Below, in pieces: positions 11,019-32,000 of a stretch of 64,000 bases of DNA. The translations under genes were made by a program, and so were the position numbers. The DNA is taken from assembly GCA_965178125.1 (NCBI GenBank), contig OZ237759.1, forward strand, positions 1 to 64,000. The letters run 5' to 3'. Position 1 is the stretch's first letter. Each line of letters starts with the position of its first letter. Below the pieces are notes generated by a model that worked only from the letters and a program-made list of their open reading frames with translations, did not search any database and had not been told where the DNA came from. This DNA is from Bilabrum cf. latius. Lineage: Eukaryota.

Positions 11019-11054
11019 ATACGCCATACTTGCACTGAATGAAGTACAATGAAT

Positions 11055-12773
11055 CTGAGGAACATTTGGCCAATGTTGTGGCCCTAGGCCGTCCCAACGC
11101 AATTTGAACGGTCTTCATATCTCCTGTGGTTGCCGAGATCGTATCCCGCAGGATTTCAGCATGAAAATCTTCAAGGCCCAATATTGGCGCCGCGCGTCAA
11201 AAGCGGAACCTGAGGAACATTTGGCCAATGATGTGGCCCTAGGCCGTCCCAACGCAATTTGAACGGTCTTCATATCTCCTGTGGTTGCCGAGATCGTATC
11301 CCGCAGGATTTCAGCATGAAAATCTTCAAGGCCCAATATTGGCGCTGCGCGTCAAAAGCGGAACCTGAGGAACATTTGGCCAATGTTGTGGCCCTAGGCC
11401 GTCCCAACGCAATTTGAACGGTCTTCATATCTCCTGTGGTTGCCGAGATCGTATCCCGCAGGATTTCAGCATGAAAATCTTCAAGGCCCAATATTGGCGC
11501 CGCGCGTCAAAAGCGGAACCTGAGGAACATTTGGCCAATGATGTGGCTCTAGGCCGTCCCAACGCAATTTGAACGGTCTTCATATCTCCTGTGGTTGCCG
11601 AGATCGTATCCCGCAGGATTTCAGCATGAAAATCTTCAAGGCCCAATATTGGCGCCGCGCGTCAAAAGCGGAACCTGAGGAACATTTGGCCAATGATGTG
11701 GCCCTAGGCCGTCCCAACGCAATTTGAACGGTCTTCATATCTCCTGTGGTTGCCGAGATCGTATCCCGCAGGATTTCAGCATGAAAATCTTCAAGGCCCA
11801 ATATTGGCGCCGCGCGTCAAAAGCAAAAGCGGAACCTGAGGAACATTTGGCCAATGATGTGGCTCTAGGCCGTCCCAACGCAATTTGAACGGTCTTCATA
11901 TCTCCTGTGGTTGCCGAGATCGTATCCCGCAGGATTTCAGCATGAAAATCTTCAAGGCCCAATATTGGCGCCGCGCGTCAAAAGCGGAACCTGAGGAACA
12001 TTTGGCCAATGATGTGGCCCTAGGCCGTCCCAACGCAATTTGAACGGTCTTCATATCTCCTGTGGTTGCCGAGATCGTATCCCGCAGGATTTCAGCATGA
12101 AAATCTTCAAGGCCCAATATTGGCGCCGCGCGTCAAAAGCGGAACCTGAGGAACATTTGGCCAATGATGTGGCTCTAGGCCGTCCCAATGCAATTTTAAC
12201 GGTCTTCATATCTCCTGTGGTTGCCGAGATCGTATCCCGCAGGATTTCAGCATGAAAATCTTCAAGGCCCAATATTGGCGCCGCGCGTCAAAAGCGGAAC
12301 CTGAGGAACATTTGGCCAATGTTGTGGCCCTAGGCCGTCCCAACGCAATTTGAACGGTCTTCATATCTCCTGTGGTTGCCGAGATCGTATCCCGCAGGAT
12401 TTCAGCATGAAAATCTTCAAGGCCCAATATTGGCGCCGCGCGTCAAAAGCGGAACCTGAGGAACATTTGGCCAATGTTGTGGCCCTAGGCCGTCCCAACG
12501 CAATTTGAACGGTCTTCATATCTCCTGTGGTTGCCGAGATCGTATCCCGCAGGATTTCAGCATGAAAATCTTCAAGGCCCAATATTGGCGCCGCGCGTCA
12601 AAAGCGGAACCTGAGGAACATTTGGCCAATGATGTGGCCCTAGGCCGTCCCAACGCAATTTGAACGGTCTTCATATCTCCTGTGGTTGCCGAGATCGTAT
12701 CCCGCAGGATTTTGTCAAAAAGTGAAGATGAAAATATTTTTCCCCGACCCTGTCCCTGACTTTATAATAGATA
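11055..12773 (+). repeat. B-family 155-bp satellite (about 10.7 copies) plus cap
   Basis: 155-bp period (CTGAGGAACATTTGGCCAATG...AAAAGCGGAAC), clearly homologous to the A and C families, ending in the cap ...ATAATAGATA|CCCTAA. Confidence 0.97.
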
Positions 12774-13518
12774 CCCTAACCCTAACCCTAACCCTAACCC
12801 TAACCCTAACCCTAACCCTAACCCTAACCCTAACCCTAACCCTAACCCTAACCCTAACCCTAACCCTAACCCTAACCCTAACCCTAACCCTAACCCTAAC
12901 CCTAACCCTAACCCTAACCCTAACCCTAACCCTAACCCTAACCCTAACCCTAACCCTAACCCTAACCCTAACCCTAACCCTAACCCTAACCCTAACCCTA
13001 ACCCTAACCCTAACCCTAACCCTAACCCTAACCCTAACCCTAACCCTAACCCTAACCCTAACCCTAACCCTAACCCTAACCCTAACCCTAACCCTAACCC
13101 TAACCCTAACCCTAACCCTAACCCTAACCCTAACCCTAACCCTAACCCTAACCCTAACCCTAACCCTAACCCTAACCCTAACCCTAACCCTAACCCTAAC
13201 CCTAACCCTAACCCTAACCCTAACCCTAACCCTAACCCTAACCCTAACCCTAACCCTAACCCTAACCCTAACCCTAACCCTAACCCTAACCCTAACCCTA
13301 ACCCTAACCCTAACCCTAACCCTAACCCTAACCCTAACCCTAACCCTAACCCTAACCCTAACCCTAACCCTAACCCTAACCCTAACCCTAACCCTAACCC
13401 TAACCCTAACCCTAACCCTAACCCTAACCCTAACCCTAACCCTAACCCTAACCCTAACCCTAACCCTAACCCTAACCCTAACCCTAACCCTAACCCTAAC
13501 CCTAACTAAACCCTAACC

Positions 13519-13581
13519 TCGACAAAAAGTGAAGATGAAATTTTTTTTTCCCCGACCCTGTCCCTGACTTTATATCAGATA
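13519..13581 (+). repeat. Solo cap between two telomere tracts
   Basis: TCGACAAAAAGTGAAGATGAAATTTTTTTTTCCCGACCCTGTCCCTGACTTTATATCAGATA, a distinct cap variant with no satellite attached. Confidence 0.9.
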
Positions 13582-13944
13582 CCCTAACCCTAACCCTAAC
13601 CCTAACCCTAACCCTAACCCTAACCCTAACCCTAACCCTAACCCTAACCCTAACCCTAACCCTAACCCTAACCCTAACCCTAACCCTAACCCTAACCCTA
13701 ACCCTAACCCTAACCCTAACCCTAACCCTAACCCTAACCCTAACCCTAACCCTAACCCTAACCCTAACCCTAACCCTAACCCTAACCCTCACCCCTAACC
13801 CTAACCCTAACCCTAACCCTAACCCTAACCCTAACCCTAACCCTAACCCTAACCCTAACCCTAACCCTAACCCTAACCCTAACCCTAACCCTAACCCTAA
13901 CCCTAACCCTAACCCTAACCCTAACCCTAACCCTAACCCTAAAA

Positions 13945-15158
13945 GGGGCGGTTTTGAAACCTACCCGGGGCGGTTTTGAAACCTACCCGGGGCGGTTTTG
14001 AAACCTACCCGGGGCGGTTTCGAAACCTACCCGGGGCGGTTTTGAAACCTACCCGGGGCGGTTTTGAAACCTACCCGGGGCGGTTTTGAAACCTACCCGG
14101 GGCGGTTTTGAAACCTACCCGGGGCGGTTTCAAAACCTACCCAGGGCGGTTTCAAAACCTACCCGGGGCGGTTTTGAAACCTAAAACCTAACCGGGGCGG
14201 TTTCAAAACCTACCCGGGGCGGTTTTGAAACCTACCCGGGGCGGTTTTGAAACCTACCCGGGGCGGTTTTGAAACCTACCCGGGGCGGTTTCAAAACCTA
14301 CCCGGGGCGGTTTCAAAACCTACCCGGGGCGGTTTTGAAACCTACCCGGGGCGGTTTCAAAACCTACCCGGGGCGGTTTTGAAACCTACCCAGGGCGGTT
14401 TCAAAACCTACCCGCGGCGGTTTCAAAACCTACCCGGGGCGGTTTTGAAACCTACCCGGGGCGGTTTCAAAACCTACCCGGGGCGGTTTCAAAACCTACC
14501 CGGGGCGGTTTCAAAACCTACCCGGGGCGGTTTCGAAACCTACCCGGGGCGGTTTTGAAACCTACCCGGGGCGGTTTTGAAACCTACCCGGGGCGGTTTT
14601 GAAACCTACCCGGGGCGGTTTTGAAACCTACCCGGGGCGGTTTTGAAACCTACCCGGGGCGGTTTCAAAACCTACCCGGGGCGGTTTCGAAACCTACCCG
14701 GGGCGGTTTTGAAACCTACCCGGGGCGGTTTCAAAACCTACCCGGGGCGGTTTTGAAACCTACCCGGGGCGGTTTTGAAACCTACCCGGGGCGGTTTTGA
14801 AACCTACCCGGGGCGGTTTTGAAACCTACCCAGGGCGGTTTCAAAACCTACCCGGGGCGGTTTCAAAACCTACCCGGGGCGGTTTTGAAACCTACCCAGG
14901 GCGGTTTCAAAACCTACCCGCGGCGGTTTCAAAACCTACCCGGGGCGGTTTTGAAACCTACCCAGGGCGGTTTCAAAACCTACCCGGGGCGGTTTCAAAA
15001 CCTACCCGGGGCGGTTTCAAAACCTACCCGGGGCGGTTTCAAAACCTACCCGGGGCGGTTTTGAAACCTAACCGGGGCGGTTTCAAAACCTACCCGGGGC
15101 GGTTTTGAAACCTACCCGGGGCGGTTTTGAAACCTAACCGGGGCGGTTTTGAAACCTA
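13945..15158. repeat. 22-bp tandem array (GGGGCGGTTTTGAAACCTACCC and TTTCAAAA variants), about 55 copies, inverted relative to the right array
   Basis: The variant unit CGGTTTCAAAACCTACCCAGGG is the exact reverse complement of the right-array unit CCCTGGGTAGGTTTTGAAACCG. Confidence 0.96.
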
Positions 15159-15374
15159 ACATGTCTGGATCCTGAGAGAGGTGGCCGAACAGGGATCCAC
15201 ATGGCTCTGGCGGCTGCCTGCCGGATGTGGTGTGGAGGCATCCGGATGTTTGGACATTTCCAGCACGCCACTTGGCCTTATGCACCTTTGGGATACAACA
15301 TATTGCTCTTGCACCTGATACCTGAGCTATATCCAGCAAAGAGTCATCAACTTCAAATGGTACACTAGAGATGA

Positions 15375-18300
15375 TCAACCGAACATGTGCTAGAGTTGCA
15401 TCCTGCCCTTTCCGCGGCCATCAGCTTGAGCGGTCTCTTGAAGATGCTTCGCTGTTCTCCGCCATGATGCGAGCAAGCCCTAGACCTTTCCAATGGACAG
15501 GGCCATCTTCCCTTGGTTCTCTCCCCAGACATCCGCTGCTTTAAATGCACTGATCTCGGCAGGACTCCAGTTGCCGGGCCCCTCGGCCAATTCTACCTCC
15601 ATAGGATCGTCCTTGGCACGAAACACCGTCTGGCACACCAACTGCACCCGCTCTGCTTCATCACCAAGTCCCACACCCAGGCCCATCAACAAAGAGTACT
15701 GGCGCAACACATGCTTCCACTCCTGCACCACGCTCCACCCAGCAAGCGTCCGTGCCAAAGGACTGGGCTCTACTGCAAAGGGATGTCGCTAGGATCTGAC
15801 AAACCCCGTCAGAAGCAGCGTACCTCGCAGGCAGACCTTCTATCTGGCGGATCCAACTGGATATGTCCGACTACGCCTGTACAGGCGAGCGGCTCCTCTA
15901 GCTGCTTGCACCACCAGACGAACTCGCTCCGCTTGGACGGCCTCCCATCCGAGAGCACCCAGTCTCCCCAGCCGCTCCGCTGCTCCTTCCCCTTCGACCT
16001 CGGCAGCTCCAGCCAACTCACGCGCTCGCTCCACGGCATTTCGTAGGCCTCGGACCCGTCCAATGGACGCACGAACCATGGCAAGCACTGCGTGACAACT
16101 TGCACCGCCGTGCAAAGCATTGCGAGCTGTCTTCACCACCCGTCGAGCCATCCGGACCAGCGATGAGAGTCTCCTCAGCTTCTCCAAAGCCTCTTGCCCT
16201 CTACTTGCCGCGATTGCACAGCCGATACGAAAACCTACGCGCTCTTGCCGGCTGTTCGTCTCCGGCAGATCTCGATGCATAATTTCGTCTCTGTGGCGCA
16301 GATGTGCAGCCTCGGATCGGTCCATGAGCGCTTGCACCTTGGCCAAGAGCTTCACGGTCTCGACACCACACAGTTCCGTGAGGAGCATCTCGGCCGCTAC
16401 AGCAGCGTTGACGGCAGCTTGACGCTGTTCGCTTCCCTCGTCCAGGACCATTGCGTCAGAGACATCGGACCTCAGCCACCCTACTACCAAACGTGTCGCT
16501 CGCACTACGGGCTGCTATGCCTCCTCCTGGCAAGCCCGACCCGCCACCGTGGCGATGCCCATCAGCGCAAGGCTAGCCCGTCTGGTCTCGAAGCTTCCAC
16601 GCCTAAGCACCGCTGCAGTACTCTCACCGATGGTACCTTCCTCCAATGGCAAGCGGAACTAGTCCCGCCAGGGCCTCCGCATATCCTCCACGTCAAGCGC
16701 ATCCCAAGGCTCCACCTACCGTGCACGAAGCAGTCGCCTGGTCCTGTCGTAGACGGAAGTGCTCATATATCTCAACTGCTAGATCCGCCGCATGGCTGCC
16801 AAGACTGCAGCTCGGGTGAGGCTGTCGACACGGGCAGCCTCTTGCGTCGAACCCGGCAGCGCCAGCGTCAAGCGCTCCCCTGCGTGCGTGCCACTGCGAA
16901 CCAAGTCGAGTTCCTCTTCCTTGACCAAACGGCCCTGCCGACGGACCGTGCCGATAGCAATCTGGAGCAGGTTGTCGTGCAGCACGGTGGCCGCCCTGCC
17001 AGCAAGCATCAGCTGCAGTGGGGAGGCAGACTGGGTCCCATCCACCCTTATGGTATCCGGCACTCCGCCCAGCGGGAGCGACCCTAGCCTAAACCGCCCG
17101 TCGTCATCCTAGCCGGTAAGACACAGCGCCAGCGGAAATGGCACACCAGGGGTGTTCACCGGAATCGCCGTCCCATGCGGGAACTTCTCGTTCTTGCCTC
17201 CTCTCACCATGGCCGCAAATGCACCAATTGCCGCCAAGGGGACATCCTCGTACACCTTCTGGAGCGCGGAGACCATGTCTTCGAGCGTTACTCCCAGGTT
17301 TCTCATGGTCTCGTGCATCAGCGATGCTGGAGCCCCCAGCAAGGTGGCCGCTTTGGCCTGCTGCTCGATGCTCTGCGTCAGAGCCACGGTATTCTCGAGC
17401 TGCATGACCACCTCGGACGCAAGCCTTCCTGGGCTGATTCGCACTACAGCAGCCAGCAGAGGGCCTGGGGCGTTGATCAGCACGGCAGACACCAAGGCCG
17501 GGTGCAGCATTCGACCAATGACCCGGCCGAGCTCCACGCAGGGATCGTCACTGCCGCTCTGCAGGAACGACCTCAGATCCAGCAAGGCGCAGTCCTTGGG
17601 AGACTCAGTCCCAGCGGCGAATCCGACAACGTGGCGCCGGCTGTCAGCCCGTGTAACCGCGAGTGGTCGCTGCCCCGTGCAGGCAATGAGCGAGGCCGAC
17701 TGCACACCCACCACAATGAGTGACGCTACGCCGTGCAGCAGCTTCGGAAGCACCTCTGGAGAGCGGGCCTCCGGATCCGTGATCTCCCTCACCCCGCCCC
17801 TGGTCACAACCTGAAGCACCATAGCCAGAGTTGCCTGGGCGACGCGGCACTGGCCGTTCCAGCTGCGTGGATCCTTCTCCACCGTTCGCCGTCGGTCCGC
17901 AATGGTGCCATCCGCCACATGCCAGATGGCCTGCCGCAGTCTGGCCTCGGGACGCGGAAGGACGGACTCCATGATGGACCGGGTCATGGCTTGCCCAGTC
18001 TGGGTGGGGGCCACCATCTGCGACACATCCAGCGCTAGCATGCGCAGCTCCCCCGCGACCGCCTGCTGAACAGCCAAACCGTCCGACACCTGCTCGGCCG
18101 CCATAGCCTTGTTCTCGATACTGGCCGCCGTAGCCATGGCCCCTCGGACCGCCTCCTCCAAGTCCCGCGTGACGGCATGCGCCACCTCCCGCTGCACCAT
18201 GGCAGCAACTGTGTCAAAGAAGGGCGCTCGAACTGTCGACGTTCCCTCCGCCAGGGCATCCACGAGACTGGCGTGTCCGTCCTCAAGTCCCAGCGCCATT

Positions 18301-21300
18301 GCTAGTCCCATCAGCAGACCAGGCCCTGCCATGCTGAATTCGACGCGAAGCGACGCTCGAGCGTCACCAATAGCCTGCAACCTGCGACACGCGATCTCTG
18401 TGGCCTCGTCGTGCGCAACCCTTGCCATGGTGGCCGCAGCAGCCCGCCCCACCTTTGGAACCTGCTGCCTGCATCGCTCCAGCTCACCATACAGCCGAGA
18501 CCCAAGCCGTTGGTGACTGTCGCCGCTGAGCCTCGTGGAGCGGAACGCCTGCTCGACGTACATCTGCACCCCGTGAGATACGCTCAGCATCGCGGGCAAG
18601 AGCTTCCGAACAAACTCGTCGTCCCGCTCGCGGGTGGCCTGCGATACCAGCTCAGCCACGTGCTGAAAGTCATGCTTAGTCATGGCAGCTTGCGTATCGC
18701 CTCTGGCACGAGCCCTGAACTGCACACTGCCCAGAGATGGGCTCATGAGCAGGCAGTTCACGTTCTCTTCATCCACTTGCATTGGGAAGACGAACTAGCT
18801 CCCCACCTGTCCGAAGCCCGGTACGGAGGAGATGTCGGCCACGGCCTCACCCGCAAGTGCCATGGCATGACGCAGGCCCAGCACGCTCGGAAACGCAGCG
18901 TGCATGTCGCCGCCACCTGCCATGAAGCCCAGGTCCATGGAGAGCAACACGGGGTCCTGGCACTGGATCTCTGGTCGATGTTGCCCGAGCTCCGTCGCCA
19001 TGCGGATGGCGTCCCTCCCGGCGGCAAGAGGGTCGACAAACACTACAGGGTGCCCGCCGTGGTCCGGAGGGTCCTCCTCAGGCTCACCAGCGGCCGGAGC
19101 CTGTCGCAGCATCAGGGATCGCATCACAGCAACCGCCGCCTGGTTCTGGCCCCCGACGACCAGGATTCGGTAGATCGAGCACGCCAGGACCCCTTGGATC
19201 TTCAGTCCGTCAGGATATCTCAGCCTGTGGGGCAGATGGCTGACCTGGGTGGGATGCAGGGCCGCGTCCTCGCTCAGGACCCGGAGCACTTCGCACAGGA
19301 AGTACCCGGGCCTGCTGCGATGCCCGCCATCAGGCTCAGCAGTCCCACGCACGCCCATGTGACGGTCTCCAGGACTCAAAGTCTCGGTGTGGGTGCTTCC
19401 GCGAGAGACACCGACGGGCGAGTCGGTTGCTACAATCGCGTACGATGCGGAGAGTCCCTGCGCCGTCGTGGCAGTCCTCGGGGTCGACTGCACCATGAAC
19501 TCGGGCCCGCGGTACCCCTCCTTCTCTCTCACGTAGTTGATGGCGCCTGCGATGCCAATCAGGAGCGACTGCACGGCCTGGTCGAACGGCGTTCCAACGA
19601 GGCGCATACCCTCCAGTCGTCGGATGTTCCAGCGCCTCGCGAGTGTGCGCAAGGAGGCCTGCTCTTCCTCAGACCCTGCGTGAGCAACGCCAAACACCCG
19701 AGCCACACCGCCCTCCGGTAGCACGACTCGCACCTCAGCCGCCCCCGCCAGGAGGACAGAGACCGAGACGTCGCCAGATCCGACCCCGCGCTGTTTGGGC
19801 ATCATCGTGAGGTACTTGCGGAGCGTGGCACGTGCGGATTTCACGGCCCTGGCATTGCCTCGCACTGTGCCGGTGCTTCCCTCCAGGATCGCTTCAGCTT
19901 CCTCTAGCACCCCAACCTCCTCGCTGCTCTGGTGGAAGCGACGAGCTGCACTCCGAACGTCCGATGTCAGGGATTGGACGGTCACGTGGTCCCCTGCTGG
20001 TGCAGGGAGAGCGTGATGGATGCGGTGCAGCCGCAGCGGCTCCGAATCCACACCCATGTTCTGGATCCCCATCGGTCCAAGGTACGCGACGTCGATGCGG
20101 GGTGAGTAGTACGCGCCGTGAGTCCTCGGCGTGCCGGGATTGTCCCGCTCCTACGTGGGGATGTGCCGGTTGAAGACGATGCTGTAGCCGAGCCGGGGCC
20201 TGGATGAGCCGCTCGTCTCCACCTCGGTGCGCTGGTGCTGCTGCGTGGCCGACTGCACCCTGATCTGCCCCCCGTCCCTCTGCAGACCCCTGCGCCCGCA
20301 GAGGACCCCATCCTGCGTCGCCGAGTCGGCTCCAATCAGCACGTCGATGAGGCCGTAGGCTTGGTCCAGCGGCTCGTCCAGCAGGAGCCGTGACACCGGC
20401 CCCCCAAGCACCAGCATGAACGGGCTGGTCTGCACCTCCTGGGAGGCTCCGGCGCCGGCTAGGATCCCGACCACCTCCATGGCGTCGACATCGGAGAGCT
20501 CAGAGCGGACCGCCACGGGGGCCGCCATGCCGTCTGGTGGGTTCCGCAGCACATCCGGGGCGGCCTCCTGCTCCTCTTCAGGCTCGCCTTCCAGCTCGGC
20601 ATCCGCAGCTCCGAAAGCCCCCGCGGCAGGATCTCCACCATCCGCTTCCTCGTCGCCGCCTTGGTCTCCGTCCGAGTCCCACTGGCCTTCCCCACCCCAC
20701 TCGCCTTCTCCAGCCTCATACCCGGCATCTTCGTCGCCCTCTGCATGCTCCTCCGCCCCAGCCGGCTGCGCCGCCGGCCCCTCCTCCATCTCGTCCTCGT
20801 CCTCGTCCTCGTACACGAACGCTGGAGGCTGCTCGGAGAGCCCGACCGCGTCAAAGACCGTCTCGTCCACGCGGTTGTACTCGATGTAGTGATCCCACTC
20901 CGTGCGGAGCGGAGAGAGCTTGTGGCTGTGCAGCCCGGGCTCCGCCAGCATCGGAGACGGCCAGAAGCTGACCGCCACCGAAGCCAGCTTGCTCCGAATG
21001 AAGGCAGCCCCTTCCTCGTTCAGGTCTTCGCTCTCCAGCATCTTGGTGATGTCAGTCCAGCCAACGAGCTGCACGAGAAAGCGGCCGCGCCTCTGCGCGC
21101 GCTGCTCCACGCCGGCAGCATCAGTCTCGGCATGCAGGAGGCTGTCCACGACGACAACGGCGCGCCTCTGGTACGCCCACCAGCGCCGCATGCCTTGCAT
21201 GGTCACCGTCTCCATCACTGGAGGTGCGAGCGCCCTCCACACCTCGGGAGGCAGCTCCTGCCTGCCAACGCAGGTCAGCAGGCCCTGCAGGGCCTGCACC

Positions 21301-22361
21301 GCCTCGTCGTCCACCTCCCATATGTGGTAGGCCAGCATGGGGTGCTGCGCGAGGTCGTCCGTCGCCTCGTGCATGCCGAACCGGTACTCGGGCGGGAGGT
21401 TGACGGCCAGGGCCTCCTCTCCCTGCGCTCCCCCCGGGTCGCCGACGACCAGGTTCCACGCCTGCACGGGTGGCGCACCGACCTCCCCTCCGGCGTCTGG
21501 GCCTGCGCCACCGCCTTGGGCGCCGGCTGCCTCTGCACCGGCAGCGAACACGACTCCGGGGATGGGCAGCTCGGGCGCTCCTCCCTCTGCCCCGAAGAGC
21601 GGCTGCTGGCCCTGAGCATCCCAGACCATGGCCTGCCGAGCTGCCTGGGTGGCCGCGTGGGCGGCTTGGCGCCCGAGGAAGATGGCCTGGACCGCTTCTG
21701 GGGGCTCGTCGTCCTCCATCGCGTCCTCCCCTGCGCCGACCCCGGCCAGGACGGGCACCTCGGCGAGAGGCACGGGCCCAGGGACGAGTTGGTGCTGGGC
21801 AGCCTGGGCAGCTGGCTGCTGCTCGGCTGCTGGAGGGGCCGGACCGACGCCGGCTGGCCCACCTGCAGGCTCCTGCTGGGGCTCCGGGATCGGGAGGAAG
21901 GCGTCGGCATCGCCAGCTGGCGGCTCGGGCTGCAAGCCTCCTGGGACCGGCAGGTTGGCACCCGGACCAGCGGGGTGCTGGGGCGGGGCGGCGGCCATCG
22001 CCTGCTGGCCAGCAGCAAGAGCTGCACCAGGTGGTGGTTGGTGGGCGCCCTCTTGCTGCTGGTGCTGGGGCTCCGGAGCATGCTCGCCGATGGCTGGGGC
22101 GGGGGCCGGCAGGCCTGCCGCATCGCCCCCCCCGGCGGCATGGCCGCCTGGCGCTGGCCCCACCTGGGCCGGGATCTGGGCCTGCGCCTCGCCGGCCGGC
22201 GGGCCAGGCAGGGCGGCACCTCCTGGTTGAAGTGGCCCTGGGACTCCGATGCGCACGCGATGCGGGTTCTGAGCGTAGCCCTTCGCGCGGCGGTCCAGGA
22301 AGGCCCGAAGGTAGTCGAGAGCCTTCACATGCTTGGTGGCGTCGTACGTGGACTGCGCCAT
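15375..22361 (-). CDS. Element ORF-A, 2328 aa, unknown function
   Basis: Six same-frame ORF-track fragments (20151-22361, 18795-20072, 17109-18782, 16779-17063, 15840-16505, 15480-15758) are joined across 11 TAGs with no TAA, TGA or frameshift. It ends in TGA at 15375-15377. The N-terminus is Pro/Ala/Gln-rich with an acidic tract. Confidence 0.85.
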
Positions 22362-22935
22362 GACCAGACTGCGGACAGAGATGCCACAAGGATATATAAT
22401 ATACTTGGGATGTGATTAGTATGATGGTACGATGCGTTGTTCCCTGGTGGCGCACTCGTCACGGCGGTGCCGCGCATCAGGTTCCGCAACCTGATCCGGG
22501 CCACCACAAATGTTGTCGCAGCACACCTGCCGCAAGCAAAGTGAGCATTGGGCGCGCAGCCTATATATCGCCGCGCAATTGTTTGCAGTATGTTATATTA
22601 TTTGATAATATGCGCGAGATTAGTTCCAACGAGTGCTTGCCGTCGCGCAATTGAGCCAAACGTCTGAACCACGTTGCAGCAAGCGCATTGCGCAAGGCAA
22701 TCCCCACGCATACCCCATCGATTTGACTCACGTTTGCTTTAGGGTTGTATGCACAATATGCTATAGTAGCTATATGCCAAGTATGCGCCTCTGCAATTGA
22801 ATACAAGGAGCGCAATATGAGTGTTTCTGATTTCGCGCTGCTCGTTGGGTGAACGGGTAGGTTTCGGCGTGACAAGTGCAAGTTGCGTGCACTTTTGATG
22901 CGAATCTGTATTTTTTTTTCGGTTTCGCGTGGGTT

Positions 22936-23024
22936 GCTGTGGTGGTGTAGTGGTATTGCGTACGGTTGGTAATCGCACCCAGGCCTACCCCCGAGGTTCG
23001 ATTCCCGTTGGGGCGATCTTTTTT
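22936..23024 (+). ncRNA. tRNA-derived Pol III-type unit, second copy
   Basis: Identical to 7336-7424. Confidence 0.6.
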
Positions 23025-23242
23025 AATTTTTTTCTGGGCTGGGGTCCGCCCCCCCACGACTGGGGGATCGACCTAACATCATGGGTCCCGGGTCTGAGAC
23101 CGAGTGCGCGGGGTCGTGGCCTTCTTTTTCTTTGCCCTCGAGCTTGCCCTGGAGACTCCCTGGGTCTCATGTCCGTGTTCGCTGCCGCATCCAAGCGCCT
23201 GTTCGTGGCCTTACCCGTGTTCCCCCAGCACCGCAGAGTACT

Positions 23243-24778
23243 ATGGCCGCCGCAAAGAGCTACAGCGTCAAGCACACCAAGGCCTCCCGCCCCGTCGTGG
23301 CTGCCCTGGCTTCAGGCGTCAGCACGTCTGCTGCCAAGCAAGTCCTGCTGATCTCCCTCGTGGGCCTCCACCAAGATTGCGGGTTACTCTGCGGGTCTAC
23401 CGAGCACTACTAGGGGACCAAGAAAGAGGGCATCAAAGCCTGCGTGGATGCCATGCTGGACCTGAATGAGTCCGATCTGCCGCCTGACATGCTGAAGGTG
23501 CTGAGTCACCGCCTATATCCGGCTGCATCAACTAGCGGCACCAGCTCGCCAGGCTACCGCAAGATGAATTAGATGCTCATGGGCCTGCGCGACAGCGGCT
23601 ACTCTACCAGCCACAATCCTTGGTTCAAGGCAGGCATGGATGGCTTGCGGAGGAACTACAAGACCGCGATCAAGTTCGTCTGCGACTACGGAGCTGGGAA
23701 AGCCTCTGTGCGTGCGCGTGGAGGCATGCAGGCTGTGTTCCAAGACGTGTTTGACATGGCAGTCAAGGACTCTGCCGCGGCAGCCGCAGGGGACCAAGAT
23801 GCTTCTGCGGGAGCCGCTGCTGCTTCGCCGAGTGGAGCACCCCGTGCTGGCAAGGACAAACGGAGTGCCATGGTCGACGACGACGAGGACGACCCCGACG
23901 ACGGTGTCGCGGACCACAGTGCCTACAAGGCCCAGAGGAAACGAGGCGAGCAAGATTCAGACGGCTCAGAGTCCAGCGACTCATAGACCGAGCGACTGAA
24001 CAACGACCTACTCGGCCCCAAGCGGAGAGCGGAGGCCAAGGCCAGGGAAAAGGCAAAGGCCAAATTGAAGGCCAGGACCAAGGCCGCGGGCAAGTCAAAG
24101 GGAAAGTCAAAGGGAAAGCCGAGGGATGAAGGTGCGCAACCGGCAGAACCGGAGCGCAGGAAGGCGACTGAAGCGGCACCTCGGGCTAAGATACAGCACA
24201 AGCGATCGCCCATTCTCCAACCGGGCTATGGCGGAGGAGCTCGCCACGCCGTTGGCCAGGACAAGAGGGGAGCAAGAGGCGCAAGGAGTGGAGCAGCAGC
24301 ATCACTGCCTCGACAGGACTCTGAGGAGGATGAAGAGGAGATCGGTGATCGATACCACGCAGACGCAGCCGATGAAGAGGACGAGGATGAGGCTCCGATA
24401 GAACTCGTGCAGCAGGACGAGGAGGATCAGGACGAGCTGGATGAGGAAGAAGAGAACGAGGCCCAGAACCAGCAAGACGACTCTGAGAACGACGGTGGAG
24501 TGGATGACAACGGCTTCACCGACTAGCAGCGGCACCTGGTGGACCGCATCCTCGCTGCCTGCGATGACATAGCGCTGGGCGTCAGCCGAACTCTCGACGA
24601 CATGCTCGAGGACGTGCAGGAAACAATTCAAGAGAGGGACGACGGGTTGGGCACGCTCGTAGGCCTGATGACGGCCCTCGAGAAGACGGCGGAAGGAGAT
24701 CTCAATGCAGCAGACGTGGACGCTGTTGAGGCGCTCCTGGCAGCTGTCGATGCGGAACCCTCCTCCGATAACGAGTGA
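23243..24778 (+). CDS. Element ORF-B, second copy, 511 aa
   Basis: Identical to 7643-9178 (offset 15600). Confidence 0.8.
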
Positions 24779-25044
24779 AAAGCAGCCAGGCGGATACCAA
24801 TTGAGGTCAGTGGCAGCTGGGCCAGCTTGTGAGAGGAGCTTGCCAGAGTGCCAGCCAGTGACCCGTTAGGACGGGATAGTAGGAGCCAGGACGCAATCTA
24901 TTTAGTCTTGACTATAAGCCAACGAATACCTGATGTCAAAGCGATGTATCGACCAAGGAGGTTAACGCATACATATGGCTACGTAGAACGAGCCACAACA
25001 TTGAATATCGGTCAATAACCACTGGATTCCCAAACCCACACCTA

Positions 25045-26574
25045 GGGTAGGTTTCAAACCTCCCTGGGTAGGTTTTGAAACCTCCCTGGGTAGGTTTTGA
25101 AACCTCCCTGGGTAGGTTTTGAAACCTCCCTGGGTAGGTTTTGAAACCTCCCTGGGTAGGTTTTGAAACCTCCCTGGGTAGGTTTTGAAACCTCCCTGGG
25201 TAGGTTTTGAAACCGCCCTGGGTAGGTTTTGAAACCTCCCTGGGTAGGTTTTGAAACCGCCCTGGGTAGGTTTTGAAACCGCCCTGGGTAGGTTTTGAAA
25301 CCGCCCTGGGTAGGTTTTGAAACCGCCCTGGGTAGGTTTTGAAACCGCCCTGGGTAGGTTTTGAAACCGCCCTGGGTAGGTTTTGAAACCGCCCTGGGTA
25401 GGTTTTGAAACCGCCCTGGGTAGGTTTTGAAACCGCCCTGGGTAGGTTTTGAAACCGCCCTGGGTAGGTTTTGAAACCGCCCTGGGTAGGTTTTGAAACC
25501 GCCCTGGGTAGGTTTTGAAACCGCCCTGGGTAGGTTTTGAAACCGCCCTGGGTAGGTTTTGAAACCGCCCTGGGTAGGTTTTGAAACCGCCCTGGGTAGG
25601 TTTTGAAACCGCCCTGGGTAGGTTTTGAAACCGCCCTGGGTAGGTTTTGAAACCGCCCTGGGTAGGTTTTGAAACCGCCCTGGGTAGGTTTTGAAACCGC
25701 CCTGGGTAGGTTTTGAAACCGCCCTGGGTAGGTTTTGAAACCGCCCTGGGTAGGTTTTGAAACCGCCCTGGGTAGGTTTTGAAACCGCCCTGGGTAGGTT
25801 TCGAAACCGCCCTGGGTAGGTTTTGAAACCGCCCTGGGTAGGTTTTGAAACCGCCCTGGGTAGGTTTTGAAACCGCCCTGGGTAGGTTTTGAAACCGCCC
25901 TGGGTAGGTTTTGAAACCGCCCTGGGTAGGTTTTGAAACCGCCCTGGGTAGGTTTTGAAACCGCCCTGGGTAGGTTTTGAAACCGCCCTGGGTAGGTTTT
26001 GAAACCGCCCTGGGTAGGTTTTGAAACCGCCCTGGGTAGGTTTTGAAACCGCCCTGGGTAGGTTTTGAAACCGCCCTGGGTAGGTTTTGAAACCGCCCTG
26101 GGTAGGTTTTGAAACCGCCCTGGGTAGGTTTTGAAACCGCCCTGGGTAGGTTTTGAAACCGCCCTGGGTAGGTTTTGAAACCGCCCTGGGTAGGTTTTGA
26201 AACCGCCCTGGGTAGGTTTTGAAACCGCCCTGGGTAGGTTTTGAAACCGCCCTGGGTAGGTTTTGAAACCGCCCTGGGTAGGTTTTGAAACCGCCCTGGG
26301 TAGGTTTTGAAACCGCCCTGGGTAGGTTTTGAAACCGCCCTGGGTAGGTTTTGAAACCGCCCTGGGTAGGTTTTGAAACCGCCCTGGGTAGGTTTTGAAA
26401 CCGCCCTGGGTAGGTTTTGAAACCGCCCTGGGTAGGTTTTGAAACCGCCCTGGGTAGGTTTTGAAACCGCCCTGGGTAGGTTTTGAAACCGCCCTGGGTA
26501 GGTTTTGAAACCGCCCTGGGTAGGTTTTGAAACCGCCCTGGGTAGGTTTTGAAACCTCCCCCGAGTAGGTTTCA
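25045..26574. repeat. 22-bp tandem array, right arm, second copy (2 units shorter)
   Basis: Same unit. The offset to copy 1 changes from 15600 to 15556 across the array. Confidence 0.97.
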
Positions 26575-26610
26575 ATACGCCATACTTGCACTGAATGAAG
26601 TACAATGAAT

Positions 26611-28337
26611 CTGAGGAACATTTGGCCAATGTTGTGGCCCTAGGCCGTCCCAACGCAATTTGAACGGTCTTCATATCTCCTGTGGTTGCCGAGATCGTAT
26701 CCCGCAGGATTTCAGCATGAAAATCTTCAAGGCCCAATATTGGCGCCGCGCGTCAAAAGCGGAACCTGAGGAACATTTGGCCAATGATGTGGCCCTAGGC
26801 CGTCCCAACGCAATTTGAACGGTCTTCATATCTCCTGTGGTTGCCGAGATCGTATCCCGCAGGATTTCAGCATGAAAATCTTCAAGGCCCAATATTGGCG
26901 CTGCGCGTCAAAAGCGGAACCTGAGGAACATTTGGCCAATGTTGTGGCCCTAGGCCGTCCCAACGCAATTTGAACGGTCTTCATATCTCCTGTGGTTGCC
27001 GAGATCGTATCCCGCAGGATTTCAGCATGAAAATCTTCAAGGCCCAATATTGGCGCCGCGCGTCAAAAGCGGAACCTGAGGAACATTTGGCCAATGATGT
27101 GGCTCTAGGCCGTCCCAACGCAATTTGAACGGTCTTCATATCTCCTGTGGTTGATATCTCCTGTGGTTGCCGAGATCGTATCCCGCAGGATTTCAGCATG
27201 AAAATCTTCAAGGCCCAATATTGGCGCCGCGCGTCAAAAGCGGAACCTGAGGAACATTTGGCCAATGATGTGGCCCTAGGCCGTCCCAACGCAATTTGAA
27301 CGGTCTTCATATCTCCTGTGGTTGCCGAGATCGTATCCCGCAGGATTTCAGCATGAAAATCTTCAAGGCCCAATATTGGCGCCGCGCGTCAAAAGCGGAA
27401 CCTGAGGAACATTTGGCCAATGATGTGGCTCTAGGCCGTCCCAACGCAATTTGAACGGTCTTCATATCTCCTGTGGTTGCCGAGATCGTATCCCGCAGGA
27501 TTTCAGCATGAAAATCTTCAAGGCCCAATATTGGCGCCGCGCGTCAAAAGCGGAACCTGAGGAACATTTGGCCAATGATGTGGCCCTAGGCCGTCCCAAC
27601 GCAATTTGAACGGTCTTCATATCTCCTGTGGTTGCCGAGATCGTATCCCGCAGGATTTCAGCATGAAAATCTTCAAGGCCCAATATTGGCGCCGCGCGTC
27701 AAAAGCGGAACCTGAGGAACATTTGGCCAATGATGTGGCTCTAGGCCGTCCAACGCAATTTTAACGGTCTTCATATCTCCTGTGGTTGCCGAGATCGTAT
27801 CCCGCAGGATTTCAGCATGAAAATCTTCAAGGCCCAATATTGGCGCCGCGCGTCAAAAGCGGAACCTGAGGAACATTTGGCCAATGTTGTGGCCCTAGGC
27901 CGTCCAACGCAATTTGAACGGTCTTCATATCTCCTGTGGTTGCCGAGATCGTATCCCGCAGGATTTCAGCATGAAAATCTTCAAGGCCCAATATTGGCGC
28001 CGCGCGTCAAAAGCGGAACCTGAGGAACATTTGGCCAATGTTGTGGCCCTAGGCCGTCCCAACGCAATTTGAACGGTCTTCATATCTCCTGTGGTTGCCG
28101 AGATCGTATCCCGCAGGATTTCAGCATGAAAATCTTCAAGGCCCAATATTGGCGCCGCGCGTCAAAAGCGGAACCTGAGGAACATTTGGCCAATGATGTG
28201 GCCCTAGGCCGTCCCAACGCAATTTGAACGGTCTTCATATCTCCTGTGGTTGCCGAGATCGTATCCCGCAGGATTTTGTCAAAAAGTGAAGATGAAAATA
28301 TTTTTCCCCGACCCTGTCCCTGACTTTATAATAGATA
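26611..28337 (+). repeat. B-family 155-bp satellite plus cap, second copy
   Basis: Same unit and variant order as 11055-12773, with small indels (e.g. a 16-bp duplication near 27153). Confidence 0.97.
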
Positions 28338-29023
28338 CCCTAACCCTAACCCTAACCCTAACCCTAACCCTAACCCTAACCCTAACCCTAACCCTAACCC
28401 TAACCCTAACCCTAACCCTAACCCTAACCCTAACCCTAACCCTAACCCTAACCCTAACCCTAACCCTAACCCTAACCCTAACCCTAACCCTAACCCTAAC
28501 CCTAACCCTAACCCTAACCCTAACCCTAACCCTAACCCTAACCCTAACCCTAACCCTAACCCTAACCCTAACCCTAACCCTAACCCTAACCCTAACCCTA
28601 ACCCTAACCCTAACCCTAACCCTAACCCTAACCCTAACCCTAACCCTAACCCTAACCCTAACCCTAACCCTAACCCTAACCCTAACCCTAACCCTAACCC
28701 TAACCCTAACCCTAACCCTAACCCTAACCCTAACCCTAACCCTAACCCTAACCCTAACCCTAACCCTAACCCTAACCCTAACCCTAACCCTAACCCTAAC
28801 CCTAACCCTAACCCTAACCCTAACCCTAACCCTAACCCTAACCCTAACCCTAACCCTAACCCTAACCCTAACCCTAACCCTAACCCTAACCCTAACCCTA
28901 ACCCTAACCCTAACCCTAACCCTAACCCTAACCCTAACCCTAACCCTAACCCTAACCCTAACCCTAACCCTAACCCTAACCCTAACCCTAACCCTAACCC
29001 TAACCCTAACCCCCCCCCCTAAA

Positions 29024-32000
29024 CCATGTTGTGCCCCCAGGCCGTCCCGATGCAGTTTGAACGGTCTTCATATCACCTGTAGTTGCCGAGATCGTAGCAC
29101 GTCGTTTTTCGGTGTGAAATTCTTCATACACCCATATCGGCGCCGCGCGGCCAGAACGGAACCTGGGGAACATTTGGCCCATGTTGTGCCCCCAGGCCGT
29201 CCCGATGCAGTTTGAACGGTCTTCATATCACCTGTAGTTGCCGAGATCGTAGCACGTCGTTTTTCGGTGTGAAATTCTTCATACACCCATATCGGCGCCG
29301 CGCGGCCAGAACGGAACCTGGGGAACATTTGGCCCATGTTGTGCCCCCAGGCCGTCCCGATGCAGTTTGAACGGTCTTCATATCACCTGTAGTTGCCGAG
29401 ATCGTAGCACGTCGTTTTTCGACAAATATTGAAGATGAAAATATTTTTTCCCCGACCCTGTCCCTGACTTTATATTAGATACCCTAACCCTAACCCTAAC
29501 CCTAACCTTAACCCTAACCCTAACCCTAACCCTAACCCTAACCCTAACCCTAACCCTAACCCTAACCCTAACCCTAACCCTAACCCTAACCCTAACCCTA
29601 ACCCTAACCCTAACCCTAACCCTAACCCTAACCCTAACCCTAACCCTAACCCTAACCCTAACCCTAACCCTAACCCTAACCCTAACCCTAACCCTAACCC
29701 TAACCCTAACCCTAACCCTAACCCTAACCCTAACCCTAACCCTAACCCTAACCCTAACCCTAACCCTAACCCTAACCCTAACCCTAACCCTAACCCTAAC
29801 CCTAACCCTAACCCTAACCCTAACCCTAACCCTAACCCTAACCCTAACCCTAACCCTAACCCTAAGTCTTCATATCACCTGTAGTTGCCGAGATCGTAGC
29901 ACGTACCTGTAGTTGCCGAGATCGTAGCACGTCGTTTTTCGGTGTGAAATTCTTCATACACCCATATCGGCGCCGCGCGGTCAGAACGGAACCTGGGGAA
30001 CATTTGGCCCATGTTGTGCCCCCAGGCCGTCCCGATGCAGTTTGAACGGTCTTCATATCACCTGTAGTTGCCGAGATCGTAGCACGTCGTTTTTCGGTGT
30101 GAAATTCTTCATACACCCATATCGGCGCCGCGCGGCCAGAACGGAACCTGGGGAACATTTGGCCCATGTTGTGCCCCCAGGCCGTCCCGATGCAGTTTGA
30201 ACGGTCTTCATATCACCTGTAGTTGCCGAGATCGTAGCACGTCGTTTTTCGGTGTGAAATTCTTCATACACCCATATCGGCGCCGCGCGGCCAGAACGGA
30301 ACCTGGGGAACATTTGGCCCATGTTGTGCCCCCAGGCCGTCCCGATGCAGTTTGAACGGTCTTCATATCACCTGTAGTTGCCGAGATCGTAGCACGTCGT
30401 TTTTCGGTGTGAAATTCTTCATACACCCATATCGGCGCCGCGCGGCCAGAACGGAACCTGGGGAACATTTGGCCCATGTTGTGCCCCCAGGCCGTCCCGA
30501 TGCAGTTTGAACGGTCTTCATATCACCTGTAGTTGCCGAGATCGTAGCACGTCGTTTTTCGACAAATATTGAAGATGAAAATATTTTTTCCCCGACCCTG
30601 TCCCTGACTTTATATTAGATACCCTAACCCTAACCCTAACCCTAACCTTAACCCTAACCCTAACCCTAACCCTAACCCTAACCCTAACCCTAACCCTAAC
30701 CCTAACCCTAACCCTAACCCTAACCCTAACCCTAACCCTAACCCTAACCCTAACCCTAACCCTAACCCTAACCCTAACCCTAACCCTAACCCTAACCCTA
30801 ACCCTAACCCTAACCCTAACCCTAACCCTAACCCTAACCCTAACCCTAACCCTAACCCTAACCCTAACCCTAACCCTAACCCTAACCCTAACCCTAACCC
30901 TAACCCTAACCCTAACCCTAACCCTAACCCTAACCCTAACCCTAACCCTAACCCTAACCCTAAGTCTTCATATCACCTGTAGTTGCCGAGATCGTAGCAC
31001 GTCGTTTTTCGGTGTGAAATTCTTCATACACCCATATCGGCGCCGCGCGGTCAGAACGGAACCTGGGGAACATTTGGCCCATGTTGTGCCCCCAGGCCGT
31101 CCCGATGCAGTTTGAACGGTCTTCATATCACCTGTAGTTGCCGAGATCGTAGCACGTCGTTTTTCGGTGTGAAATTCTTCATACACCCATATCGGCGCCG
31201 CGCGGCCAGAACGGAACCTGGGGAACATTTGGCCCATGTTGTGCCCCCAGGCCGTCCCGATGCAGTTTGAACGGTCTTCATATCACCTGTAGTTGCCGAG
31301 ATCGTAGCACGTCGTTTTTCGGTGTGAAATTCTTCATACACCCATATCGGCGCCGCGCGGCCAGAACGGAACCTGGGGAACATTTGGCCCATGTTGTGCC
31401 CCCAGGCCGTCCCGATGCAGTTTGAACGGTCTTCATATCACCTGTAGTTGCCGAGATCGTAGCACGTCGTTTTTCGGTGTGAAATTCTTCATACACCCAT
31501 ATCGGCGCCGCGCGGCCAGAACGGAACCTGGGGAACATTTGGCCCATGTTGTGCCCCCAGGCCGTCCCGATGCAGTTTGAACGGTCTTCATATCACCTGT
31601 AGTTGCCGAGATCGTAGCACGTCGTTTTTCGACAAATATTGAAGATGAAAATATTTTTTCCCCGACCCTGTCCCTGACTTTATATTAGATACCCTAACCC
31701 TAACCCTAACCCTAACCTTAACCCTAACCCTAACCCTAACCCTAACCCTAACCCTAACCCTAACCCTAACCCTAACCCTAACCCTAACCCTAACCCTAAC
31801 CCTAACCCTAACCCTAACCCTAACCCTAACCCTAACCCTAACCCTAACCCTAACCCTAACCCTAACCCTAACCCTAACCCTAACCCTAACCCTAACCCTA
31901 ACCCTAACCCTAACCCTAACCCTAACCCTAACCCTAACCCTAACCCTAACCCTAACCCTAACCCTAACCCTAACCCTAACCCTAACCCTAACCCTAACCC

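What the first reader, a model, noticed from the sequence alone, without database searches (positions are those of the whole stretch)
13945..28337. Unclassified giant telomere-embedded element: inverted 22-mer arrays around two divergent unknown ORFs, no visible RT or transposase
Seen: a 14.4-kb unit sits between (CCCTAA)n tracts. It has a left 22-bp array, a 2328-aa minus-strand ORF (hidden in the standard-code track), a 511-aa plus-strand ORF, an inverted right 22-bp array, a 155-bp satellite and a fixed cap. A near-identical truncated copy is at 4516-12773, and the cap variant at 1-53 hints at a third. Known: telomere-associated elements (Athena/Terminon Penelope-like elements, TRAS/SART, MoTeR, HeT-A/TART, yeast Y') encode an RT, gag-like protein or helicase. 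By eye I find no YxDD RT, Walker A, DDE, HUH or tyrosine-recombinase motif in either ORF. Inference: this may be a new class of telomere-propagated element, or a foldback-like TIR element captured by a telomere-accreting unit.
Basis: partly seen in the sequence, partly recalled or inferred. Interest (0 to 1): 0.9.

Follow-up and report, generated by a model that had tools for sequence, protein, structure and literature searches.

The report
Gene-carrying repeat unit stacked inside telomere
A chromosome end is built from stacked blocks separated by telomere repeats, and the largest block carries two genes with no known relatives; it looks most like yeast Y' or worm TALT elements, which are copied along with telomeres, and not like a self-moving transposon.

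Summary
Window 1-34400 is a left chromosome end. In it, 15 (CCCTAA)n tracts are each preceded by the same ~55-nt cap, joined in one phase (AGATA|CCCTAA). The blocks between tracts share this centromere-side end and differ at the other end.

- **Blocks:** one 14.4-kb unit, one copy cut inside ORF-A, nine satellite-plus-cap units (A1-A6, B1-B4 minus none; ten with both families), one cap-only unit and one decayed innermost cap.
- **ORF-A (2328 aa) is a real gene.** It has no TGA or TAA in 2346 codons, host-like codon usage, and an excess of silent differences between variants. This genome reads TAG as sense.
- **No relatives.** ORF-A and ORF-B (511 aa) match no Pfam family. The only protein hits are near-identical fragments from one other contig. 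No RT, helicase, transposase or ribozyme was found.
- **DNA-level copying occurs.** Five units are identical over 637 bp, including an irregular healing junction.

Best reading (about 0.5): a Y'/TALT-like telomere-flanked cassette, spread by telomere-primed copying, terminal truncation and telomerase healing. RNA-mediated end addition (about 0.25) is not excluded. ORF-A's fold could not be predicted here.

The parts
13945..15158 (.). Left (telomere-side) array of about 55 copies of the 22-mer GGGGCGGTTT[TG/CA/CG]AAACCTACCC. It abuts (CCCTAA)n directly, so it may be a healed truncation.
15375..22361 (-). ORF-A: 2328 codons plus a TGA stop, with 11 in-frame TAG read as sense. The first ~330 residues are low-complexity A/P/G/Q-rich and are followed by an acidic stretch. 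No known domain.
22369..22731 (-). Possible 5'UTR intron of ORF-A: 363 nt, GT..AG on the minus strand, ending 7 nt before the ATG. One contig of one run joins across it.
   Evidence: table 5; sequence
22362..23242 (.). Divergent intergenic region between ORF-A and ORF-B. It holds a decayed tRNA-like stretch (22934-23018, + strand) followed by T-runs.
23243..24778 (+). ORF-B: 511 codons plus a TGA stop, with 4 TAG. It has a helical N-terminal part, a lysine-rich stretch, long acidic tracts and a helical C-terminus. No known domain.
25045..26572 (.). Right array: 69.5 copies of GGGTAGGTTTTGAAACCGCCCT, inverted relative to the left array.
26607..28276 (+). 155-bp satellite, 10.7 copies (type C).
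28277..28337 (+). Cap: a conserved ~55-nt end (..TGAAGATGAAAATATTTTTCCCCGACCCTGTCCCTGACTTTATAATAGATA) joined in fixed phase to CCCTAA.
4516..12773 (+). Second copy, cut inside ORF-A at the position matching 20116 and joined there to telomere repeats through an irregular first repeat. It retains ORF-B, the right array, the satellite and the cap.
12774..13942 (+). (CCCTAA)n between the two copies, interrupted at 13506-13581 by a cap-only unit (type D).
28338..29009 (+). (CCCTAA)112 on the centromere side of the full unit.
222..4270 (+). Five units A1-A5. Each is 3.6 copies of a 155-bp satellite variant plus cap (637 bp). All five are identical, including the CCCTACCCTACCCTAC junction. They are separated by 35-40 CCCTAA repeats.
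29010..34350 (+). Inner stack: units B1-B4 (29010-32815), A6 (33452-34071) and a decayed innermost cap (34246-34350). Each is followed by a CCCTAA tract.
1..53 (+). Type C cap at the window start, so a further C-type unit lies beyond the window.

Best explanation
The 14.4-kb unit is the largest member of a family of telomere-flanked blocks that make up this chromosome end. It works like yeast Y' or nematode TALT elements and is not a self-moving transposon.

Proposed cycle (inferred):
1. A G-strand telomere end pairs with an internal (CCCTAA)n tract on a sister chromatid, another chromosome end, or a circle excised between two tracts.
2. It primes DNA synthesis outward. The first thing copied is always the cap, then the satellite, then, in type C units, the right 22-mer array, ORF-B, ORF-A and the left array.
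3. The new end later breaks or erodes, and telomerase heals it, often beginning with irregular repeats.
4. The cycle repeats. This yields blocks with a constant centromere-side end and variable telomere-side ends.

ORF-A and ORF-B are lineage-restricted, host-adapted genes carried along as passengers. The near-palindromic, telomere-like 22-mer arrays on both sides may bind telomere-repeat-type proteins. They could act as healing seeds or as insulators that keep the gene pair active between telomere tracts.

Shown: the anatomy, the identical copies, the constraint on ORF-A, and the lack of known mobility domains. Inferred: the copying mechanism and every role proposed for the proteins and arrays.
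For: - 15 of 15 CCCTAA tracts are preceded by a cap ending AGATA in the same phase, while 8 different telomere-side ends occur.
- A1-A5 are identical over 637 bp, including the irregular junction CCCTACCCTACCCTAC. B3 equals B4. B2 differs by 1 substitution and a 28-bp duplication. Shared healing scars show copying of DNA that already contained the junction.
- The two big copies have 0 differences in 4930 bp.
- Several telomere-side junctions begin with irregular repeats (G strand GTAGGG.., AGGTTAGGGTTTAG.., TTTAGGGGGGGGGG), as expected for de novo addition by telomerase.
- No RT or other mobility domain at E<=1 in ORF-A, ORF-B or 8 other frames; the only rows were three chance-level ones (E 0.0064-0.14) below their family cut-offs. 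No hammerhead or other Rfam family.
- ORF-A is a constrained gene. Of the 35 variant sites listed, 20 are silent (permuted mean 11.1; 33 of 20000 permutations reach 20), against 6 and 5 in the shifted frames.
- Codon usage is host-like: r = 0.94 for ORF-A and 0.78 for ORF-B, with host genes at 0.62-0.90 and other frames at 0.56-0.80. TAG is used as a sense codon as in host genes. 5 of 7 protein fragments from another contig end exactly at ORF-A TAG positions.
Against: - A constant end next to the older telomere, with variable truncation of the far end down to a 76-bp cap-only unit, is also the classic footprint of target-primed reverse transcription onto chromosome ends. Under pure break-induced copying, each short unit needs a separate later break and healing event.
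- The cap differs by only 1-3 positions among unit types A-D, while the satellites differ by about 16%. This suggests the cap is functionally recognised. That fits an RT or end-binding factor at least as well as it fits gene conversion next to the tract.
- No other chromosome end could be examined because no genome is held. The prediction that ends share nested distal blocks is therefore untested.
- The function of the ORFs is unknown, so an active role in copying cannot be excluded.
Confidence: 0.5

Rival explanations
1. RNA-mediated terminal addition by a non-autonomous telomere-specific retroelement family. A plus-strand transcript ending ..cap-(CCCUAA)n anneals to the G-overhang. An RT supplied in trans (an endonuclease-less Penelope-like RT, another RT, or telomerase itself) extends the chromosome end. 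Incomplete copying produces the 5'-truncation series, and telomerase then recaps the new end.
For: - The 3'-anchored, 5'-variable series includes a 76-bp cap-only unit.
- The cap is far better conserved than the satellite across unit types.
- The cap-to-CCCTAA junction is in a fixed phase in 15 of 15 cases.
- Athena and Coprina elements attach to G-rich overhangs with the help of reverse-complement telomeric repeats (PMC8557442, passages).
- The cap ends in a TATA-like TTTATA[AT]TAGATA, which could drive transcription into the next unit as in HeT-A (the HeT-A comparison is recalled, not read here).
Against: - No RT in any long frame of the unit.
- No hammerhead ribozyme or other Rfam match.
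- No poly(A).
- ORF-A, the longest gene, lies antisense to the required template RNA.
- The template would be a 14-kb RNA carrying two inverted 1.2-1.5-kb arrays.
- Identical units that share a healing scar need DNA-level copying, or a transcript that starts in the upstream tract.
Confidence: 0.25
2. A foldback-type DNA transposon, or a former linear episome or virus-like replicon bounded by inverted 22-mer arrays, that became trapped in a subtelomeric satellite and is now copied passively.
For: - Inverted arrays of 1.2 and 1.5 kb flank a divergent gene pair.
- The array unit is a 12-bp palindrome with flanks, as in binding-site arrays of plasmid or viral maintenance elements (sequence; the comparison is recalled).
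- The two proteins have no cellular relatives.
Against: - No inverted similarity beyond the arrays.
- No polymerase, integrase, capsid or transposase domain.
- No match in viral contigs for the 22-mer pattern or for ORF-B.
- Codon usage and sense-TAG usage are host-like.
- The satellite and cap travel with the unit in both copies.
- The left end is a telomere junction, so no target duplication can be defined.
Confidence: 0.1
3. The duplication and the unit counts are assembly artefacts of a highly repetitive chromosome end, and only one big unit exists.
For: - 0 differences in 4930 bp between the copies.
- Five identical 637-bp units.
- Some of the differences in the repeats are 1-bp indels, which are typical of long-read error.
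Against: - The truncated copy has its own unique junction, telomere repeats joined inside ORF-A.
- It has different neighbours on both sides.
- It differs by a 44-bp array change, a 16-bp duplication and a 6-bp deletion.
- Each junction type is unique sequence.
- Raw long reads could not be inspected. The contigs laid neither showed nor excluded the 20116 junction.
Confidence: 0.05

Closest known systems
Yeast Y' subtelomeric element
   Same: A multi-kb, ORF-bearing block lies directly inside the terminal repeats. Tandem copies are separated by telomere-repeat tracts and are near-identical. It is amplified by recombination at chromosome ends.
   Different: Y' encodes a helicase. ORF-A and ORF-B have no helicase or any other known domain. 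The present unit also carries inverted 22-mer arrays, a 155-bp satellite and a conserved cap. Its interstitial tracts are much longer (168-732 bp in single perfect runs).
TALT1/TALT2 of Caenorhabditis elegans (PMC4595603, passages read)
   Same: [quoted passage not shown] TALT1 also contains part of a gene.
   Different: TALT amplification was seen in telomerase-deleted survivors and derives from an internal locus. Here the state of telomerase and the source locus are unknown, the irregular junctions point to active telomerase, and several unit types are interleaved.
Athena/Coprina Penelope-like elements and Terminons (PMC8557442, passages read)
   Same: Restricted to chromosome ends. The 3' end is followed by reverse-complement telomeric repeats. 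Giant size and extra ORFs (Terminon details recalled).
   Different: The defining RT is absent, and no hammerhead ribozyme motif was found.
Sultan/Suber subtelomeric repeats of Chlamydomonas reinhardtii (PMC8287924, passages read)
   Same: Species-specific tandem units next to the telomere, each with a telomere-like seed. The authors propose that they spread by unequal sister exchange or break-induced replication and contract by telomere healing.
   Different: Those seeds are short (up to about 80 bp, degenerate). Here the tracts are long and perfect, and one unit type carries a 2328-aa gene and a 511-aa gene.
Telomeric non-LTR retrotransposons: HeT-A/TART, TRAS/SART, Zepp (recalled; PMC5537684 seen only as a search listing)
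   Same: Head-to-tail arrays with a constant 3' end facing the centromere and variable 5' truncation.
   Different: No gag or RT, and no poly(A). The largest ORF is on the opposite strand.
Foldback (FB) transposons (recalled)
   Same: Long terminal inverted regions made of short tandem repeats around a variable middle.
   Different: The inverted regions are arrays of a near-palindromic unit only. No target duplication or dispersed copies could be shown. The unit always travels with the satellite and cap.

Membership tests
Penelope-like Athena/Terminon | PLE-type reverse transcriptase ORF | tested here: not met
   Pfam at E<=1 found no family for ORF-A or ORF-B. For 8 other long frames on both strands it gave only three chance-level rows (E 0.0064-0.14, none an RT), below their cut-offs. 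The only [YFLMV]xDD match is MEDD in a low-complexity tract.
Penelope-like Athena/Terminon | Hammerhead ribozyme motif near the 3' end | tested here: not met
   Rfam gave 0 matches at gathering score over the whole window and 0 at E<=1 in 27800-28400.
Penelope-like Athena/Terminon | Reverse-complement telomeric repeats at the 3' end, located at chromosome termini | tested here: met
   Every unit is followed by CCCTAA repeats in fixed phase, 15 of 15. This is also expected for any block lying between telomere tracts.
Telomeric non-LTR retrotransposons (HeT-A/TART/TRAS/SART/Zepp) | RT and/or gag ORF and a poly(A) or defined 3' tail | tested here: not met
   No RT or gag domain. No CCHC motif. 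The cap ends in AGATA with no A-run.
Telomeric non-LTR retrotransposons (HeT-A/TART/TRAS/SART/Zepp) | Constant 3' end with variable 5' truncation | tested here: met
   8 distinct telomere-side ends share one cap.
Yeast Y'-type subtelomeric element | Lies between the terminal and an internal telomere-repeat tract; tandem copies separated by tracts; copies near-identical | tested here: met
Yeast Y'-type subtelomeric element | Helicase ORF | tested here: not met
   No Walker A or DEAD/DEAH motif and no Pfam helicase domain.
TALT-type template for recombination-based telomere extension | Unique DNA block flanked by telomere-like sequences in the same orientation, in tandem within telomeres | tested here: met
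   definition from PMC4595603
TALT-type template for recombination-based telomere extension | Spread to many or all chromosome ends by telomerase-independent copying | not testable with these tools
   No genome is held, and only one read-laying run was allowed.
Foldback transposon | Long terminal inverted repeats built from tandem subrepeats | tested here: inconclusive
   The arrays are inverted, but the unit is itself 18/22 palindromic and no further inverted similarity exists.
Foldback transposon | Target-site duplication and dispersed insertions | not testable with these tools
   The left flank is a telomere junction. Other genomic copies could not be reached.
Polinton/Maverick, Tlr or other virus-derived element | Protein-primed polymerase, integrase or capsid genes | tested here: not met
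   No Pfam domain. No relatives in viral contigs for ORF-B or the 22-mer pattern.

The most novel reading that the evidence does not exclude
This is a new kind of selfish 'telomere rider' that has no reverse transcriptase. The 2328-aa ORF-A protein, with ORF-B and the palindromic telomere-like 22-mer arrays, would actively promote copying of its own cassette onto chromosome ends. It might do so by loading onto the arrays and the cap to trigger telomere-primed synthesis, or by maintaining a linear or circular extrachromosomal template. The short satellite-plus-cap units would then be its non-autonomous dependants, using the same conserved cap.
Probability: 0.15. Interest if true: 0.85.

Novelty: new variant of a known kind. 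Interest (0 to 1): 0.55.

Why it matters
If the main reading is right, this organism keeps a natural, telomerase-proficient version of the structures seen in yeast type I and worm ALT survivors. Long perfect telomere tracts alternate with copied blocks, and one block holds two constrained genes found nowhere else.

It would be a tractable case for three questions:
- How do genes stay active inside telomeres?
- How does a conserved 55-nt cap come to sit at every tract?
- Do RNA-templated and recombination-based end extension coexist?

If ORF-A turns out to drive the copying, it would define a new enzyme class for chromosome-end mobility.

Tried and rejected
**Relatives of the ORFs**
- Word-based search with ORF-A residues 640-2346: none.
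- HMMER of ORF-A residues 1148-2346 against 1.84 billion representatives: 6 hits, all 94-100% identical fragments from one 12,766-bp contig.
- ORF-A N-terminal part: 1 hit, from the same contig.
- ORF-B: none.
- 'Longer' and 'shorter' length classes were not searched, so split or fused relatives are not excluded.

**Solved structures (PDB sequences)**
- ORF-B best hit E 0.39. ORF-A N-terminus best hit E 0.65.

**Protein Atlas**
- ORF-A residues 330-640: no usable hit.

**AlphaFold2, single sequence**
- ORF-B mean pLDDT 48. ORF-A residues 330-572 mean pLDDT 43. Both are too poor for fold search, so none was run.

**DNA pattern scans**
- Cap 25-mer in metagenome contigs: 0.
- 22-mer dimer pattern in metagenome contigs: 0. 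In viral contigs: 0.
- ORF-B against viral contigs: 46 pattern matches, none confirmed.

**RNA features**
- Rfam: nothing.
- ARAGORN at default settings: no tRNA.

**Sequencing runs**
- No RNA holder is listed.
- Depth differences between the ORF-A and ORF-B parts in run X6 were not used, following the tool's warning.
- The junction at 20116 was neither shown nor excluded by the contigs.

- No whole genome is held.

**Organism and literature**
- The organism was not identified. The DLD protein's best solved relative is 1dxl (recalled to be a plant enzyme).
- Literature searches turned up no description of this structure.

**Genetic code**
- Whether TAA is also a sense codon was left unresolved.
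Full report
**Setting**

The window is GC-rich (about 0.5-0.7). Its first 34.4 kb is a left chromosome end, with CCCTAA on the plus strand.

From 37.3 kb onward lie ordinary genes: dihydrolipoamide dehydrogenase, a GH79 hydrolase, a UFD1-like protein, a RecQ-type helicase, ARM and WD40 proteins, TRIP13 and an AIR9-like protein. These genes are contiguous only if TAG is read as a sense codon. The TRIP13 alignment to solved homologues runs in frame through two TAGs.

All 9 host ORFs counted, and both element ORFs, end in TGA. Whether TAA is also a sense codon stays open.

Tandem Repeats Finder and a self-BLAST give this map:

| Coordinates | Feature |
|---|---|
| 13945-15158 | 22-mer array, about 55 copies |
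| 15375-22361 (minus) | ORF-A |
| 23243-24778 (plus) | ORF-B |
| 25045-26572 | inverted 22-mer array, 69.5 copies |
| 26607-28276 | 155-bp satellite, 10.7 copies |
| 28277-28337 | cap |
| 12774-13942 and 28338-29009 | flanking (CCCTAA)n |

The ORF-A frame has 11 TAG but no TGA or TAA in 2346 codons. About 38 are expected from base composition, so P(none) is about 4e-17.

A second copy at 4516-12773 shows 0 differences from 20116-25045 over 4930 bp. It differs only in the repeats: two 22-mer units, a 16-bp duplication, a 6-bp deletion, two 1-bp deletions and one substitution. Its telomere-side end is a direct junction of telomere repeats to the interior of ORF-A.

**The unit is one of a series**

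All 15 CCCTAA tracts in the window are preceded by a cap ending AGATA, joined to CCCTAA in the same phase. This includes the cap at the window start and a decayed innermost one at 34246-34350. The roughly 55-nt cap differs at only 1-3 positions among unit types A-D. The 155-bp satellites of types A, B and C are only about 84% alike.

The telomere-side ends differ. There are 8 kinds:
- the 22-mer array (the full unit);
- the inside of ORF-A;
- four different points in the satellite (A1-A5, A6, B1, B2-B4);
- a 76-bp cap-only unit (13506-13581);
- the decayed innermost cap, which follows degenerate telomere repeats.

Several junctions start with irregular repeats, as telomerase does when it heals a break.

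Within a type the units are almost or fully identical:
- A1-A5: 637 bp each, 0 differences, and all share the irregular junction.
- A6, at the inner end of the stack: 1 substitution, and 17 nt shorter.
- B3 equals B4.

**The ORFs**

ORF-A is a constrained gene.
- Contigs of other public runs carry a variant of its 3' part.
- Of the 35 differences that the tool listed between 15518 and 17457 (277 more were not shown), 20 are silent and 22 fall on third codon positions.
- When the same changes are placed at random, the mean is 11.1 silent, and 33 of 20000 permutations reach 20. In the two shifted frames only 6 and 5 are silent.
- Constraint looks weaker in the last ~350 residues, where 10 of the 14 listed sites below 16450 change the amino acid.

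Both ORFs look host-adapted.
- Relative codon usage correlates with the neighbouring host genes at r = 0.94 for ORF-A and 0.78 for ORF-B. Host genes score 0.62-0.90 when each is left out in turn, and antisense or shifted frames score 0.56-0.80.
- TAG makes up a share of glutamine-type codons similar to that in host genes.
- One variant changes TTG to TAG.
- 5 of the 7 protein fragments predicted on another contig stop exactly at ORF-A TAG positions. So the TAGs are shared between copies.

There is one hint of expression. One contig of one run joins 22368 to 22732. The skipped 363 nt begin GT and end AG on ORF-A's strand, and they end 7 nt before the ATG. This fits a 5'UTR intron. However, the run's type is only guessed, so a DNA deletion variant is not excluded.

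**No known family**

- Pfam found no family at E<=1 for ORF-A or ORF-B. For eight other long frames on both strands it gave only three chance-level rows (E 0.0064-0.14), all below their curated cut-offs.
- A motif scan found no Walker A, DEAD, HUH, CCHC or GIY motif. The only YxDD-like match (MEDD) lies in a low-complexity tract.
- Database searches gave only near-identical fragments (94-100%) from one 12,766-bp contig.
- PDB sequences, the Atlas (N-terminal part only) and viral contigs gave nothing.
- Single-sequence AlphaFold2 models were unusable, with pLDDT 48 and 43.
This is the main gap.

**The arrays**

The 22-mer is GGGGCGGTTT-CG-AAACCTACCC, an 18/22 palindrome whose arms resemble telomeric G-strand repeats.
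- The centre is CG in a few units and TG or CA in the rest: 30 TG, 22 CA and 3 CG in the left array, and 67 TG and 1 CG in the right array. This is the pattern expected from decay of a methylated CpG (inference).
- No inverted similarity exists beyond the arrays, and neither ORF has a paralogue elsewhere in the window.

**Mechanism**

Units that are identical down to their healing scar (A1-A5; B3 and B4) must have been copied from DNA that already held the junction. So recombination-type copying between telomere tracts operates here, whether by unequal sister exchange, break-induced replication or rolling-circle copying. Together with terminal breaks healed by telomerase, it can generate the whole stack.

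The big unit then behaves like yeast Y' (recalled) or nematode TALT. [quoted passage not shown] Chlamydomonas Sultan and Suber arrays, which have telomere-like seeds, are explained in the same way by their authors (PMC8287924, passages). I put this reading at about 0.5.

The main rival, at about 0.25, is RNA-templated addition to the G-overhang. Endonuclease-less Penelope-like elements do this with the help of reverse-complement telomeric repeats (PMC8557442, passages).
- In its favour: the strictly 3'-anchored truncation series and the strongly conserved cap fit it well.
- Against it: there is no RT, no ribozyme and no poly(A), and the largest gene is antisense to the presumed template.

A foldback transposon or captured episome (0.1) and an assembly artefact (0.05) are less likely, for the reasons given under the rivals.

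**Novelty**

The kind of structure, telomere-flanked blocks amplified at chromosome ends, is known. Three things are new:
- the content: a constrained 2328-aa orphan gene and a 511-aa partner between palindromic telomere-like arrays;
- the universal cap;
- the occurrence, apparently in a normal genome, of long perfect internal telomere tracts.

The paper searches found no description of it.

Noticed in passing
window 37313-62034 (host genes) and 15375-24778: TAG is read as a sense codon. Host ORFs with Pfam domains are contiguous only with TAG read through, and the TRIP13 alignment to solved homologues runs across two TAGs. All 9 host ORFs counted and both element ORFs end in TGA, so TAA may not serve as a stop either. 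Which amino acid TAG encodes was not shown (Gln assumed).
   Followed up: partly
window 22934-23018 (+): A decayed tRNA-like stretch, with D-loop-like TAGTGGTA and T-loop-like GGTTCGATTCC, followed by T-runs. It lies between ORF-A and ORF-B. ARAGORN finds it only with a lowered threshold, and Rfam does not find it at E<=1.
   Followed up: partly
window 34403-37145: A 55-bp G-rich satellite, about 50 copies at 97% identity, lies directly between the innermost telomere tract and the first gene.
   Followed up: no
window 45419-48448 (-): A RecQ-type helicase gene (DEAD and Helicase_C domains) lies about 11 kb from the telomere stack. Telomere-linked RecQ helicases are known from fungal subtelomeres (recalled).
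   Followed up: no
window 13945-15158 and 25045-26572: The central CpG of the 22-mer palindrome has mostly decayed to TG or CA (30 TG, 22 CA, 3 CG on the left; 67 TG, 1 CG on the right). This suggests cytosine methylation of the arrays.
   Followed up: partly
window 15373-22028: In run X1 the 3' part of ORF-A differs at 42 of about 2660 bases (15373-18035), but the next 3916 bases differ at only 8 and the intergenic and ORF-B contigs at 0. Upstream of 15373 the contig no longer matches. So the variants are mosaics, and the 3' flank is much more diverged than the coding part.
   Followed up: partly
window 23892-24419: One run (X6) holds a form of ORF-B in which 526 nt of the charged middle part are replaced by 25 other letters. 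Several contigs of X6 and X8 leave the window's sequence inside ORF-B, so ORF-B variants or paralogues exist.
   Followed up: no
window 42615-45086 (-): One ORF combines weak ubiquitin-conjugating-enzyme and UFD1 N-terminal domain matches, all below the Pfam cut-offs. It is a possible fusion protein.
   Followed up: no
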